Below are positions 32,077 through 58,124 of a stretch of DNA of 64,000 nt, in pieces. The translations under genes were made by a program, and so were the position numbers. Where the stretch lies: contig CAVRJG010000003.1 of assembly GCA_963721455.1 (NCBI GenBank), forward strand, positions 45,300 through 109,299. The letters are read 5' to 3'. The stretch is from an uncultured Methanosarcinaceae archaeon (lineage in GTDB: Archaea; Halobacteriota; Methanosarcinia; Methanosarcinales; Methanosarcinaceae). Position 1 is the stretch's first letter, and every line of letters starts with the position of its first letter. Under the pieces are notes generated by a model, which saw only the letters and a list, made by a program, of their open reading frames with translations, was not told the origin of the DNA and made no database searches.

Positions 32077-32262
32077 ATGATACATCAATGGGAGTATGAT
32101 TCTCGCAGGCTTGATGGTTTGAACATGCCACAAATGATGAGCGAACTCGAAAGAATCGGAAACGAAGGCTGGGAACTGGTTTTGATCAAGAACGATATTG
32201 ATGAAGAAGGCACAGTAACTGCAATTTTCAAACGGGAAAAGAGCGAGACGTTATCTGTATAA
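32077..32262 (+). CDS. DUF4177-like small protein
   Basis: WEY...L..IGNEGWELV......IFKR pattern; GGAGGGG RBS; TATA upstream. Confidence 0.75.
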   Translation: MIHQWEYDSRRLDGLNMPQMMSELERIGNEGWELVLIKNDIDEEGTVTAIFKREKSETLSV

Positions 32263-32267
32263 AAACT

Positions 32268-32347
32268 TACTTTTTAATTTTTACTGTCTTTTTACTATCT
32301 TTTTACTTTTTTACTATCTTTTTACTATTTTTTACTATTTTTTACTG
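32268..32347 (+). terminator. Repeated oligo-T units (TTTTTACT(A/G)) after the DUF4177-like gene; probable terminator
   Basis: About 7 successive T-tracts directly after the stop codon. Confidence 0.5.
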
Positions 32348-32619
32348 TGAATTTTGAAGTTTTCTATTTCTCAGTATCTTAATTATATTAAATATTTGCT
32401 TTTTACTAAGGTTTTCAGGTATCTCTTTCTTTCAGTTTATCAGTTTTGTAAAGATGATCTTTTAATATTTCTTTTACAGGGTGGCCTGAAAAATAAACAT
32501 CAAACGAAGGAATGTCAAATGCTTTTCTCAAATACGGAAAAAGAAGTATGAGCTTCAGGATAAGCTTGTGCCGCTAATTCTGAAAATTCTAAAAAAAATT
32601 ATTTGATTTGGAGAAAAGA

Positions 32620-32842
32620 TTGCGTTCCCACCTGAAAAATTTTGGAAGTTCCGAACGGCACTTATTAGGTCTTGTTTAGGAAGAGGTTTGGTACTGGACT
32701 CACGGGTTGCGAGCTCTTGATTTTATCTCTTCACTTCTAGAGTAGATTTTTCGGAGTAGGCGTTGAAGTATTTCTTGTGGAATAGGTCTTTGCTATGTGG
32801 TCTTGTTCTTTGCTATGTGGTCTTGTTAGATGAGAACGCAAG
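32620..32842 (-). ncRNA. Candidate structured small RNA, copy 1 (~220 nt)
   Basis: TATA-like TAATATATAA at 32861-32870; 5' UUGCGUUCUCAUCU pairs with 3' AGGUGGGAACGCAA (14 bp, 2 G-U); oligo-U tract downstream; no AUG; homologous to 33343-33532. Confidence 0.6.
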
Positions 32843-33188
32843 TAATACTAGGTTCTCACCTTATATATTATTTTTAACACATAATGTTATTTCAGATATG
32901 TTTTGTTAGTACATACTTCTAATTTACCTTCATTGGTTTAACCTTATAGCATCAAACTATAGTCCTGGACGTAAATATTCGCACCTGATTTACCCAGAGT
33001 CCGGTAACAAAGAAAAAATATTGACGAGCACGGAAAAATTCACTCAAGACTCTATAACCCGCTTCATTGTCTATTGACCATGGTGGGCACGGAAAAACTT
33101 GCTCCAGACTCTACACCCACGGAAAAGACCGACAGCCCTGAAAATTTCGTTTGAGATTAGTCAATGAATTTTAGTAATTGACTACAGG

Positions 33189-33291
33189 TCCCCTTCAAAC
33201 CAGATTACCTTAAAATTAGATCTCCTTCAAACCAGATTACCTTAAAATTAGATCCCCTTCAAACCAGATTACCTTAAAATTAGATCCCCTT
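33189..33291. repeat. 32-bp tandem repeat, 3 copies plus partial
   Basis: TC(C/T)CCTTCAAACCAGATTACCTTAAAATTAGA contiguous, no spacers. Confidence 0.95.
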
Positions 33292-33342
33292 ACCAACACG
33301 CAGTTCACAAAGGTTCCAGAAAGTTACTTTTAAAATGAGGTA

Positions 33343-33532
33343 GCGTTCTCATCCACAAAAACCTGGGAGTTCCAAATGGTATTTAAGAGACTCACTTTGT
33401 TTAGTTGGGGAAGAGGTATTGAGGTATTTTGACTTATGGGTTGCGAGTTTCTCTTTCTATCCCTTTACTGTGGAGTTATTTTCTGGAGTAGGTGTCGTTT
33501 GCTAGTGGGGTGTTAAAGAGATGAGAACGCAA
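33343..33532 (-). ncRNA. Candidate structured small RNA, copy 2 (~190 nt)
   Basis: Same promoter spacing (ATTATATATG 33551-33560); perfect 11-bp terminal stem GCGUUCUCAUC/GAUGAGAACGC; shares CCUACUCC, CUCGCAACCC and ACCUCUUCC blocks with copy 1. Confidence 0.6.
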
Positions 33533-34043
33533 GTTATACTATGCCGCCATCATATATAATATTTTTAACACTTAATATTATTGTATTCGTCTATTCCTGC
33601 TTTACCTTTCTAACTTTAATTCATTGATCTAATGTTTATATCATTAAACTAACCACACTAACCACATATCCGAAACTCTAACCAAACAGGAAAAATAATT
33701 CCAGAATAAAAATAATTGCAGAATGAAACCAGGATGTTATTGAAAAACTTTTCCAATAATTTTTGTGATAATAAGGGCTATTTCCGAATAAATACCATTT
33801 TCCCCAATTCTTATTATCCGGTATACGCAGGAATTATATGATCCCAATAAGAATACATTTCTTGATACTATAACCTTGATTCCAGGTTTTTGGAAGAAAA
33901 TCAGATTAAAACGCTTGATGGATTTATAGTTCCAGGAATCCCCATTCCCTGAAATTAAAACAGTTAACAGGGTCGGTGCACATTTTTTAAACCACGGCCT
34001 GTATGTAAAGCGACCTGTATGTAAAGAATTCATTGCAGAGTAT

Positions 34044-56569: not shown

Positions 56570-58124
56570 GTAACTACTCAGAGCTATCGATCATACTTTT
56601 TTTCTTATTTATTCCTGAAAAATTGCAAATCAATTGAAGTTCATCTTGTTTTATAATTATGCTTACATGCGAAGACATTCTTGCAATCTATAAAACTGGT
56701 CCTGAAGCTGTTATTTTTGTAATCCAGAGACTTGAAACTATTATAGAAAAACAAGCTATTCGCATTGATGAACTAGAAGAACATGGAAAGCTTTTGGAAT
56801 CTCACTTAAATCAAAACAGTAGAAACAGTAACAGACCACCTTCTACAGACTTTTTTGTCAAAGAAAAAACTAATCCAAAGAGTCGCAGAATAAAGAGTGA
56901 CAAGAAAACTGGAGGTCAAGAAGGTCATCCAGGAACGACTCTTGATATGGTCATTAACCCTGATCAGGAGATAGAGCATTCTTTGCACTGGTGCGAAGAA
57001 TGCGGATGCAGCCTTGAGAATATGGAAGTTGAAAATTACGAGATAAGACAGGTTTTCGACATTCCACCTATAAGTCTAATTGTTACGGAACATAAAAGCC
57101 AGATTAAAACCTGTCCTCACTGTGGGAAATTGAACAAAGCTGTTTTTCCTGAATCAGTAAAATATCCAGTTCAATATGGTCCTAACATTTTAGCTTCAGC
57201 AATTTACTGTAAAAACTATCAGTTTATTCCCTATGAAAGGATTTCTGAGTTTTTCTATGACATTATGGGAATAAAAATCTGTTCTGCTACCATTATTCGA
57301 GCTGAAAGAGTCTGTTTCCGGAATTTAGAGGACTTTGAAAACGTAATTCGAGAAAAATTAAAAGCCTCTACTGTCATCCATTGTGATGAAACAGGGATGA
57401 AAATTAATAAAGAAGGATACTGGCTTCACGTAGTTTCTAATGACAAATACACCTGTTATCTTGCTCATCCAAAAAGAGGGTCAGAAGCGATGGATGCTAT
57501 GGGAATTCTTCCTCAGTTTAAAGGGATAGCAGTTCATGATGGATGGAAACCCTACAACAATTATGATTGTGATCATGCTCTTTGTAACGCTCATCTACAG
57601 AGAGAACTTACTGGAATTGAAGAGAATTATAAACAGCAATGGGCTAAAGATATGAATGAACTGTTAGCGGAAATGAAAAAGTATGCTGATGAATGTAAAG
57701 AGAAGACACAAGAGTTAGATTTCGAGAAAATTAAAGCGTTCGGGGAAAGGTTCAATGATATCGTCATTAAAGGAATTGAGGAAAATCCACCATCTCTAAA
57801 TCCTGTAAAACAGGGAAAATGTGGAAGGAATCCTAAAACCAAAGCAAGGAATCTACTTGAAAGGTTCATAGAACATAAAGAAAAGATATTGAGATTCCTG
57901 ACAGATTTGAGAGTTCCATTTGAGAATAATCAAGCAGAAAGAGATATCAGGATGATGAAACTACAGCAGAAAATATCAGGAACTTTCAGAACAACACGAG
58001 GAGCGGAAGCTTTCTGCAGAATTAGAGCTTACATTTCTACAATCAGAAAGAATAATTTGCCTGTTTTAGAGGGAGTTCTAGCAGCGCTCCAAGGAACGCC
58101 GCTAACCATACCCTGAACAGTTAC
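56570..58124 (+). mobile_element. IS66-family insertion sequence (single ORF)
   Basis: TIRs GTAACTACTCAG / CTGAACAGTTAC; flanks do not form a TSD. Confidence 0.88.
56659..58116 (+). CDS. IS66-family transposase, intact ORF
   Basis: NS.NS..PPSTD, GGQEGH.G, CEECG...CPHCG, HCDETG, VHDG, CNAHLQRE, NNQAERDIR. Confidence 0.93.
   Translation: MLTCEDILAIYKTGPEAVIFVIQRLETIIEKQAIRIDELEEHGKLLESHLNQNSRNSNRPPSTDFFVKEKTNPKSRRIKSDKKTGGQEGHPGTTLDMVINPDQEIEHSLHWCEECGCSLENMEVENYEIRQVFDIPPISLIVTEHKSQIKTCPHCGKLNKAVFPESVKYPVQYGPNILASAIYCKNYQFIPYERISEFFYDIMGIKICSATIIRAERVCFRNLEDFENVIREKLKASTVIHCDETGMKINKEGYWLHVVSNDKYTCYLAHPKRGSEAMDAMGILPQFKGIAVHDGWKPYNNYDCDHALCNAHLQRELTGIEENYKQQWAKDMNELLAEMKKYADECKEKTQELDFEKIKAFGERFNDIVIKGIEENPPSLNPVKQGKCGRNPKTKARNLLERFIEHKEKILRFLTDLRVPFENNQAERDIRMMKLQQKISGTFRTTRGAEAFCRIRAYISTIRKNNLPVLEGVLAALQGTPLTIP

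What the first reader, a model, noticed from the sequence alone, without database searches (positions are those of the whole stretch)
32620..33575. Tandem pair of homologous, end-paired candidate ncRNA genes in an ORF-free region
Seen: two diverged copies (32620-32842 and 33343-33532, minus strand), each with a TATA box at the same distance from an identical 5' end CUUGCGUUCUCAUCU. In each, the 5' end is complementary to the 3' end ~190-220 nt away. Copy 1 has a 14-bp stem whose two mismatches read as G-U on the minus strand (A-C on the plus strand, supporting the strand call); copy 2 has a perfect 11-bp stem. Between the ends only short blocks are conserved, in order: CCUACUCC, CUCGCAACCC(G/A)U(G/A)AG, ACCUCUUCC, GGAACU(U/C)CCA. 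Indels are not multiples of three (copy 1 has a 20-bp internal duplication) and copy 1 has no AUG. Inference: a multicopy structured RNA family; the repeated C/U-rich blocks are anti-Shine-Dalgarno-like, suggesting RBS-masking sRNAs or a protein sponge. I cannot match it to an RNA family I know.
Basis: partly seen in the sequence, partly recalled or inferred. Interest (0 to 1): 0.8.

Follow-up and report, generated by a model that had tools for sequence, protein, structure and literature searches.

The report
Conserved multicopy Methanosarcina small RNA genes
Two neighbouring genes encode a conserved, expressed, non-coding RNA of about 200 bases found only in Methanosarcina and one sister genus, whose paired ends close a G-poor loop carrying repeats of a motif that resembles the ribosome's mRNA-docking tail; what it does is still untested.

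Summary
Window 32622-32842 and 33343-33533 (minus strand) are two of three paralogous genes in this genome. The third lies on another contig.

Shown:
- Every one of 68 aligned copies has a TATA hexamer ending 19 nt before the same 5' end.
- 61 of 68 have an oligo-T run after the 3' arm.
- The 11-bp end-to-end helix is paired in 747 of 748 cells. Its 3'-arm changes are A/G swaps opposite U, which fixes the transcribed strand.
- A covariance model finds 2-10 copies in 34 of 34 genomes of the genus and 6 of 6 of one sister genus, and none in 110 genomes of 14 other genera.
- Contigs from four RNA libraries cover both genes.
- No reading frame is conserved, and there is no Rfam match.

Inferred: the interior is G-poor (12% G), mostly unpaired, and repeats a (U/A)ACYYC motif that resembles the 16S anti-Shine-Dalgarno tail. 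I favour trans-acting occlusion or titration of ribosome binding sites (about 0.4), with a protein sponge close behind (about 0.3). Crude target scans found no specific mRNA.

The published M. mazei sRNA lists could not be read, so the RNA may already carry a catalogue number.

The parts
33553..33569 (-). Copy 2 promoter, GTTAAAAATATTATATA (BRE-like A-run plus TATA box)
   Evidence: Read. The TATA hexamer ends 19 nt before the first RNA base in 68 of 68 copies, and the upstream consensus is conserved at 90% or more (alignment).
33534..33541 (-). Copy 2 conserved start-proximal element TAGTATAA
   Evidence: At least 90% conserved (one position at least 60%) in the upstream consensus of 68 copies. 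Its function was not tested.
33343..33533 (-). Copy 2 RNA gene (paralogue type A), from the first base to the end of the 3' arm. The transcript probably runs on to the T-run at 33332-33335
   Evidence: CM score 178.3 bits. A 180-nt RNA-library contig covers 33316-33495 with 0 mismatches, and another contig ends at 33533 followed by adapter letters. T-run position.
33520..33530 (-). Copy 2 terminal helix, 5' arm GCGUUCUCAUC
   Evidence: Invariant in 65 of 68 copies; 3 copies have one U-to-C change at column 13. Paired in the MFE and centroid folds.
33343..33353 (-). Copy 2 terminal helix, 3' arm GAUGAGAACGC
33409..33426 (-). Copy 2 tandem UACCUC ... UACCUCUUCC motifs (anti-SD-like core ACCUC, twice)
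   Evidence: The 16S 3' end in this genome reads GGAUCACCUCCU.
32862..32878 (-). Copy 1 promoter, GTTAAAAATAATATATA
32843..32850 (-). Copy 1 start-proximal element TAGTATTA
32622..32842 (-). Copy 1 RNA gene (paralogue type B), from the first base to the end of the 3' arm, with a T-run at 32614-32617
   Evidence: CM score 143.8 bits. RNA-library contigs from three runs lie on it, for example 32670-32812 with 0 mismatches and adapter letters at both ends.
32829..32839 (-). Copy 1 terminal helix, 5' arm. The helix extends to 14 bp in this copy
32622..32632 (-). Copy 1 terminal helix, 3' arm GGUGGGAACGC (two G-U pairs)
32787..32827 (.). 20-bp tandem duplication inside copy 1, specific to this genome's copy
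   Evidence: TRF: period 20, 2.0 copies, 100%. Absent from the type B orthologues in the alignment.

Best explanation
The two elements are independent genes of a non-coding RNA family of about 167-224 nt. Each has an archaeal TATA promoter at a fixed distance and an oligo-T terminator. The family has three paralogues in this genome and 2-10 per genome across the genus and one sister genus.

The first and last bases of the transcript form an 11-14 bp helix. That helix closes a G-poor, largely unpaired interior of 140-195 nt. The interior displays about four copies of a pyrimidine motif, (U/A)AC(C/U)(U/C)C, which shares its core with the 3' tail of 16S rRNA (CACCUCC).

Proposed mechanism: the RNA acts in trans. 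The exposed motifs pair with GGAG/GAGG-type Shine-Dalgarno purine tracts of mRNAs, so they occlude or titrate ribosome binding sites. The terminal helix shields both ends from exonucleases and lets the RNA accumulate.

Shown: the gene family, the strand, the helix, the lack of coding potential, and the presence of both genes in RNA libraries. Inferred: everything about targets and effect.

My odds are about 0.95 that this is a real expressed ncRNA gene family. The confidence of 0.4 given for this explanation is for the mechanism.
For: Family and genes:
- Three full-length copies in the genome.
- The CM finds the family in 34/34 genomes of genus g1 and 6/6 of g13, and in 0/110 genomes of 14 other genera. 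In the order-wide sample it is 12/12 and 4/4, and 0/134 elsewhere.
- The paralogue types each span many species (tree).
- The tandem locus is syntenic: a neighbouring 61-aa gene is shared by 9 other loci.
- The TATA box sits at a fixed 19 nt in 68/68 copies, and a T run of 4 or more follows the arm in 61/68.

Strand and helix:
- 747/748 cells are paired.
- 3'-arm purines opposite U swap A/G in 3, 7, 29 and 16 of 68 copies. Purines opposite C never change.
- The sense strand scores about 170 bits against the CM; the antisense strand scores about 30.

Expression: contigs from four RNA libraries of four studies lie on both genes. Two are identical to the window and carry adapter letters at their ends.

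Non-coding: the 5' UUG frame runs 5-61 aa, and 35/68 copies have no ATG outside the 3' arm.

Mechanism:
- The interior is 12.3% G against 21.3% for the genome.
- UACYYC occurs 2.19 times per RNA against 0.31 in shuffles. ACCUC occurs 1.22 against 0.47.
- Motif positions are 0.70 unpaired; the arms are 0.01 unpaired.
- The motif's Y/Y variation would keep pairing to G (inference).
- 9/68 copies, all type A and including copy 2, carry ACCUC directly after the 3' arm.
- Precedent: the characterised M. mazei sRNAs occlude ribosome binding sites (passages read in PMC5867862, and PMC6560208).
Against: - No extended complementarity turned up. Conserved blocks of 8-14 nt are not concentrated in front of start codons.
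- The best duplexes on the cdh operon fall inside coding sequence, not at its ribosome binding sites.
- A 5-6 nt motif is short for stable pairing.
- I defined the motif after seeing the alignment, so its enrichment is not an independent test.
- The block CUCUUCC can pair internally with a conserved AAGAG block, in 82-94% of cells, which would mask it.
- No full CCUCC is conserved in the interior.
- The 5' arm is invariant beyond what pairing needs. That points to sequence-specific recognition, which suits a protein partner at least as well.
- Contigs cannot give strand, ends or level.
Confidence: 0.4

Rival explanations
1. Protein sponge or RNP scaffold. The repeated pyrimidine motif and the invariant terminal helix are binding sites for one or more RNA-binding proteins. 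Candidates are a KH-domain factor that normally reads the 16S 3' tail, or an Sm-like protein on the U-tract before the 3' arm. The abundant RNA would sequester or organise them, as CsrB/RsmZ do for CsrA.
For: - Several spaced copies of one short motif sit in an unpaired, G-poor interior.
- The 5' arm is invariant although pairing alone would allow change.
- A conserved U-run of 4-7 lies between a weak hairpin and the 3' arm.
- No specific mRNA target was found.
- Several diverged paralogues all keep the same blocks.
Against: No partner protein is identified. No protein gene recurs next to the RNA genes: the neighbours differ between paralogue loci (HEAT-repeat protein, ABC transporter, vWA, radical SAM, CobW). 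The motif was chosen post hoc.
Confidence: 0.3
2. A housekeeping-type stable RNA of an unknown particle, an archaeal counterpart of Y RNA, vault RNA or 6S RNA. Function would depend on architecture (closed ends, large loop) and not on the pyrimidine motif.
For: - A terminal helix formed by the two ends plus a pyrimidine-rich loop is the Y-RNA layout (recalled knowledge).
- The promoter is strong and highly conserved.
- The family is found in every genome of the genus that was searched.
- Contig word depths reach 1e4-1e5 in one RNA library. The tool warns that this is a poor measure of expression.
Against: - There is no TROVE/Ro gene in this 98.5%-complete genome.
- The size is 167-224 nt, not about 100.
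- The RNA has no long double-stranded body with a central bubble, as 6S has.
- Restriction to two genera argues against a core housekeeping role.
Confidence: 0.1
3. A small mRNA or dual-function RNA encoding a micro-protein, for instance leaderless from the 5' UUG.
For: 63 of 68 copies begin xUUG. M. mazei sRNAs have repeatedly turned out to carry translated small ORFs (passages read in PMC11456600).
Against: - That frame ends after 5-61 codons, with 1-nt indels inside a single paralogue type.
- 4 copies have CUG at that position.
- 35 of 68 copies have no ATG outside the 3' arm.
Confidence: 0.03
4. A miniature inverted-repeat transposable element or other DNA-level repeat, with the inverted ends serving as transposase sites.
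For: The 11-14 bp inverted termini enclose about 200 bp, and there are several copies per genome.
Against: - Only 3 copies in the genome, and no orphan arms elsewhere.
- Conservation continues about 60-90 nt upstream of the 5' arm into a promoter.
- The flank next to the 5' arm is the same TAGTATAA in the copies, so it is not a target-site duplication.
- The locus is syntenic across species.
- Arm substitutions preserve RNA G-U pairing on one strand only.
- No plasmid or phage match.
Confidence: 0.02
5. A cis-acting leader or attenuator of a downstream gene.
For: None beyond the location in a long intergenic region.
Against: Each unit ends in an oligo-T run. The sequence downstream of each copy is not conserved in relatives. 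Downstream genes differ between loci.
Confidence: 0.02

Closest known systems
M. mazei RBS-occluding sRNAs (sRNA41, loop 2 of sRNA154)
   Same: Intergenic Methanosarcina sRNAs with their own promoters. They are said to mask ribosome binding sites through anti-RBS sequence in unpaired regions (passages read in PMC5867862, and PMC6560208).
   Different: - This family has 2-10 paralogues per genome.
- It is closed by an end-to-end helix and is about 170-225 nt. sRNA154 is given as 130 nt (PMC3177094).
- It has no NrpR operator (GGTA-N6-TACC, the operator given in PMC3177094) in the promoter sequence I read.
- No complementarity to cdh ribosome binding sites was seen.
- Identity with sRNA41 could not be checked. 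That paper is not in the library, and I have no sequence for it.
CsrB/RsmZ-type protein-sponge RNAs (bacteria)
   Same: Several copies of one short motif are displayed in unpaired regions of an sRNA of a few hundred nucleotides. Paralogous copies are present.
   Different: The motif here is pyrimidine-rich (UACYYC), not GGA. No CsrA-like partner is known in archaea (recalled knowledge). The closing terminal helix is not a feature of those RNAs.
Y RNA
   Same: The 5' and 3' ends pair into a terminal stem around a pyrimidine-rich loop, and there are several paralogues (recalled knowledge).
   Different: No Ro/TROVE gene in the genome. The RNA is about twice as long. No Rfam Y_RNA hit even at E up to 10.
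3' tail of 16S rRNA (anti-Shine-Dalgarno)
   Same: The core ACCUC/CUCC follows a helix. In type A copies the sequence directly after the 3' arm reads (C/U)ACCUCAUUUU. The genome's 16S ends GGAUCACCUCCU.
   Different: This is a resemblance of short motifs only, not homology. The full CCUCC is mostly absent from the RNA.

Membership tests
Any Rfam 15 family | Covariance-model match at or near the gathering score | tested here: not met
   At gathering thresholds the window gives only PYLIS_5 at 56965-57064. At E up to 10 on 32200-33900 there are three chance-level hits at 13-24 bits, against gathering scores of 50-60.
Y RNA / Ro RNP | Ro60 (TROVE domain) protein encoded in the genome | tested here: not met
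   PF05731 has 0 matches in the window's own genome (98.5% complete). The positive controls gave matches.
Y RNA / Ro RNP | Terminal stem formed by the 5' and 3' ends, with a pyrimidine-rich internal loop | tested here: met
MITE | Target-site duplications abutting the inverted ends, with conservation stopping at the ends | tested here: not met
   The 5' flank is the same TAGTATAA plus promoter in the copies, and the 3' flank is a T-run.
MITE | Many dispersed copies, with presence/absence at orthologous sites | tested here: not met
   Three copies in the genome. The tandem locus is syntenic in 9 other loci.
RBS-occluding archaeal sRNA (sRNA41-like) | Unpaired C/U-rich anti-SD sequence | tested here: met
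   ACCUC occurs 1.22 times and ACUCC 1.24 times per RNA, against 0.47 and 0.46 in shuffles. Motif positions are 0.70 unpaired. The motif was chosen post hoc.
RBS-occluding archaeal sRNA (sRNA41-like) | Extended complementarity to the ribosome binding sites of defined target mRNAs | tested here: inconclusive
   The block-complement scan and the cdh operon duplex scan found nothing specific. Both are crude: there are no gene calls, no accessibility model and no cross-species filter.
RBS-occluding archaeal sRNA (sRNA41-like) | Sequence identity to published sRNA41, sRNA154 or sRNA162 | not testable with these tools
   Jager 2009 (PMC2799843) and PMC11633612 are not held. Supplements are closed. 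Searches for the arm and block strings found no relevant paper.
6S RNA | A long, mostly double-stranded rod with a central bubble | tested here: not met
   The consensus fold has only an 11-bp terminal helix. Single-sequence folds have z-scores of -1.7 to -4.7 with open interiors.
Protein-sponge RNA (CsrB-like logic) | A repeated short motif in unpaired regions | tested here: met
   ACYYC occurs 4.31 times per RNA against 1.73 in shuffles; UACYYC 2.19 against 0.31.
Protein-sponge RNA (CsrB-like logic) | A cognate RNA-binding protein | not testable with these tools
   No recurrent neighbouring protein gene.

The most novel reading that the evidence does not exclude
An abundant decoy of the ribosome's anti-Shine-Dalgarno tail. 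This would be a genus-wide family of end-clamped RNAs whose many ACCUC/CUCC motifs compete with 30S subunits for mRNA Shine-Dalgarno sites, or soak up a factor that reads the 16S 3' tail. Either way it would set the global level of SD-dependent translation initiation in Methanosarcina, for instance during slow growth. It would be an archaeal functional counterpart of global regulators such as 6S or CsrB.
Probability: 0.15. Interest if true: 0.85.

Novelty: new member of a known kind. Interest (0 to 1): 0.6.

Why it matters
Only three archaeal regulatory RNAs of methanogens have a worked-out function. This family is found in every Methanosarcina genome searched. It is kept as several old paralogues, is present in environmental RNA libraries, and has no Rfam model.

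It has an unusually simple and testable design: a clamp helix plus a G-poor loop carrying repeats of an anti-SD-like motif. If the motif reads Shine-Dalgarno sites or a 16S-tail factor, the family would be a global lever on translation in the main acetate-using methanogens. If not, it is still a well-defined new RNA family for annotation and for genetic work in M. acetivorans or M. mazei.

Tried and rejected
- **Rfam.** The gathering and permissive searches gave nothing.
- **Y RNA.** Rejected because there is no TROVE gene.
- **Plasmid and phage collections.** No match.
- **Earlier findings of this scan.** Nothing by place, sequence or words.
- **rRNA pairing.** The longest complementary runs to the rRNA operon are 14-16 nt, no better than shuffles: 23, 4 and 26 of 100 shuffles reach them. 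A first version of this test with duplexfold timed out.
- **Specific mRNA targets.** Complements of the conserved blocks are not concentrated before start codons. The top cdh operon duplexes lie inside coding sequence, and duplexfold allowed unrealistically long loops.
- **Trans partners of the arms.** No other exact arm occurs in the genome.
- **Inner helices.** AAGAG:CUCUU, CUCRC:GUGAG and GGAACU:GGUUYY are 69-94% paired but show no real covariation. Shuffle controls on A1 are not exceeded. The higher counts on A2 are not used, because A2 was fitted to the model and contains three reverse-strand rows and truncated rows.
- **Parts without read cover.** In the four RNA runs laid, the flanks and the 470-bp spacer between the genes had no cover, apart from depth 1.44 at 32300-32353 in X3. 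Depths from contigs are not used to rank expression.
- **Literature.** String searches for the arms and blocks found 3 unrelated papers and 0 papers. Keyword searches were run. Passages were read in PMC4152357, PMC5867862, PMC11456600, PMC3432209, PMC3177094, PMC9170634, bioRxiv 10.1101/2025.10.28.685009, PMC5112694 and PMC6560208. None describes this family. PMC2799843 and PMC11633612 are not held.
- **Bacterial promoter/terminator scan.** Uninformative for an archaeon.
Full report
**Observation**

The minus strand of window 32300-33900 carries two related units. In both, the string GTTAAAAATA(A/T)TATATA is followed after 11 variable bases by TAGTAT(A/T)A and then CUUGCGUUCUCAUC.

| | Copy 1 | Copy 2 |
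|---|---|---|
| 5' arm | 32829-32839 | 33520-33530 |
| 3' arm | 32622-32632 | 33343-33353 |

Copy 1 folds with a 14-bp end helix containing two G-U pairs. No ORF longer than 65 aa lies between 32263 and 33736.

**It is a gene family, not a chance similarity**

A profile of the copies finds exactly three full-length members in the 3.94-Mb genome: the two in the window and one at G000:C45:100205-100451. Their E-values are 2e-62 to 2e-73, and the next hit has E 0.69.

By DNA similarity the family is in 19 of 19 sampled genomes of the same genus and 6 of 6 of one other genus. It was not found in 95 genomes of 14 further genera of the family.

I collected 79 profile hits from the fetched loci. Nine were dropped because one arm could not be recognised (truncated or split hits). 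That left 70, of which 68 are distinct, and these were aligned as A1.

A covariance model built on A1 gave these results:

| Sample | Genus g1 | Genus g13 | Elsewhere |
|---|---|---|---|
| Family-wide | 34/34 | 6/6 | 0/110 in 14 other genera |
| Order-wide | 12/12 | 4/4 | 0/134, including 0/102 in five other families |

There are 2-10 matches per genome. Both scans used the stricter filters, so 'not found in those searched' is the correct wording.

A tree of the 68 copies shows that the three paralogue types of this genome each form a clade spanning many species. These are type A (copy 2), type B (copy 1) and type C (the contig 45 copy). The duplications are therefore old and the copies have been kept.

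**Promoter, terminator and strand**

All 68 copies have a TA(T/A)ATA hexamer ending exactly 19 nt before the extracted first base. The upstream consensus is conserved for about 45 nt. In 61 of 68 copies a run of at least four T lies within 22 nt after the 3' arm.

Against relatives, conservation covers the RNA bodies and about 60-90 nt upstream of each. It vanishes in the spacer and downstream.

RNAalifold predicts one consensus element, the 11-bp helix between columns 4-14 and 292-302, and 747 of 748 cells are paired. The pattern of change is informative:
- The 5' arm is almost invariant.
- 3'-arm purines that face U alternate between A and G in 3, 7, 29 and 16 of 68 copies.
- The four 3'-arm G that face C never change.

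On the other strand these changes would be C-A mismatches. That pattern, the promoter orientation and the CM scores together fix the minus strand as the RNA strand. The CM scores are about 170 bits for the sense strand and about 30 for the antisense.

True two-sided covariation is nearly absent: 2 cells in A1. The helix therefore rests on conserved pairing, not on compensatory change. Shuffle controls cannot separate it, because the columns hardly vary.

**Expression**

One run search and one laying of four RNA libraries from four studies were available. All were Logan contigs. Contigs lie on 32632-32812 and on 33316-33533.
- Run X4 gives a 180-nt contig at 33316-33495 identical to the window.
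- Run X5 gives a 143-nt match at 32670-32812, also identical, with adapter letters on both sides.
- In X3 a contig ends at 33533 followed by adapter letters, which fits the predicted 5' end.
- Word depths in X3 reach 1e4-1e5. The tool warns that this is a poor measure of expression and that RNA libraries can hold DNA.

I take this as support for transcription, not as proof of ends, strand or level.

**Not coding, not mobile, not a known family**

- The frame opening at the 5' UUG ends after 5-61 codons. It is broken by 1-nt indels within one paralogue type. Thirty-five of 68 copies have no ATG outside the 3' arm.
- A MITE reading fails on copy number, on the conserved promoter outside the inverted ends, on the constant TAGTATAA flank where a target-site duplication should be, and on synteny. 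On synteny, a 61-aa gene at 32077-32262 is shared by 9 other loci.
- There is no match in the plasmid or phage collections.
- Rfam gives nothing, even at E up to 10.
- A Y-RNA reading fails for lack of a TROVE gene. A 6S-like rod is not predicted.

**Anatomy of the interior**

The interior is 12.3% G, 37.8% A and 27.0% C, against 21.3% G in the genome. In partition-function folds it is about 60% unpaired, while the arms are 1% unpaired.

Three inner pairings recur, but none is supported by covariation, so they stay tentative:
- AAGAG with CUCUU
- a CUCRC/GUGAG hairpin
- a G-U-rich hairpin, GGAACU/GGUUYY, next to a U-run before the 3' arm

The conserved blocks reduce to one repeated motif, (U/A)AC(C/U)(U/C)C.

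| Motif | Per RNA | In dinucleotide shuffles |
|---|---|---|
| ACYYC | 4.31 | 1.73 |
| UACYYC | 2.19 | 0.31 |

I chose the motif after seeing the data. Its core equals that of the 16S 3' tail of this genome, GGAUCACCUCCU. Copy 2 has six such motifs, two of them in tandem at 33413-33426. One lies directly after the 3' arm at 33337-33342. ACCUC follows the 3' arm in 9 of 68 copies, all of type A.

**Mechanism**

Two readings fit this anatomy.

(a) The motifs pair with GGAG/GAGG tracts of mRNAs and occlude or titrate ribosome binding sites. This is how the characterised M. mazei sRNAs are said to act (passages in PMC5867862, and PMC6560208). The tolerated C/U exchange within the motif would keep pairing to G.

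(b) The motifs and the invariant helix bind a protein, as in sponge RNAs.

My tests do not separate them. No extended targets appear before start codons. The cdh operon, whose ribosome binding sites sRNA41 is reported to mask, shows no RBS-centred duplexes. The rRNA operon is no more complementary than shuffles. Neighbouring genes differ between paralogue loci and give no hint.

I put (a) at about 0.4, (b) at about 0.3, and an architecture-driven particle RNA at about 0.1. In every case the terminal helix plausibly protects both ends, which would explain accumulation. That step is inference.

**Novelty**

The family has no Rfam model. It is not found by its sequence strings in 8.1 million open papers and 0.36 million preprints. 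None of the nine papers in which I read passages describes it.

The original M. mazei sRNA catalogue reports 199 intergenic candidates, with 21% conserved in M. barkeri and M. acetivorans (passages in PMC3432209). I could not read it, and supplements are closed. A promoter-bearing RNA like this one may well already carry an sRNA number there without a function.

I therefore rate it a new, well-defined member of the known kind 'archaeal intergenic sRNA'. What is unusual is the clamp-plus-repeat design and the set of paralogues kept across the genus.

Noticed in passing
window 32077-32262 (+): A 61-aa ORF (MIHQWEYDSRRLDG...) preceded by a strong GGAGGGGG Shine-Dalgarno sequence. It is conserved at 75-85% DNA identity in 9 orthologous loci next to the RNA pair. 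It has no Pfam family.
   Followed up: partly
window 33189-33291: A 32-bp unit repeated 3.2 times at 97% identity, lying between the two RNA genes. It has a 16-bp sub-period. It has no blast match in the related loci I had fetched.
   Followed up: partly
window 33028-33059 and 33087-33118: Two 32-nt direct repeats (GCACGGAAAAA...GACTCTA..., 81% identical) in the same spacer. Purpose unknown.
   Followed up: no
window 32270-32348: An array of TTTTTACTAT-like units (period 11, 6.8 copies) directly downstream of the 61-aa gene. It may be a stacked oligo-T terminator serving both converging units.
   Followed up: no
window 56965-57064 (+): A PYLIS_5 element (Rfam RF02512, 82 bits), the pyrrolysine insertion signal of a transposase gene. 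This is the only Rfam match in the window and is consistent with a Methanosarcina origin.
   Followed up: no
G078:C10:20304-20492, G085:C6:57590-57776, G047:C52:31556-31744 and others: A fourth, more diverged paralogue type (about 70-76 bits against the model) is present in several related genomes. It was not found in this genome's assembly.
   Followed up: no
L028:766-974 and L027:2156-2322 (sister genus): In some sister-genus copies the sequence just after the 3' arm reads CAUUCCUCCUAAA. It shares the 8-mer CCUCCUAA with the end of the 16S gene and its flank in this genome. It lies at or beyond the likely terminator, so it may not be in the RNA.
   Followed up: no
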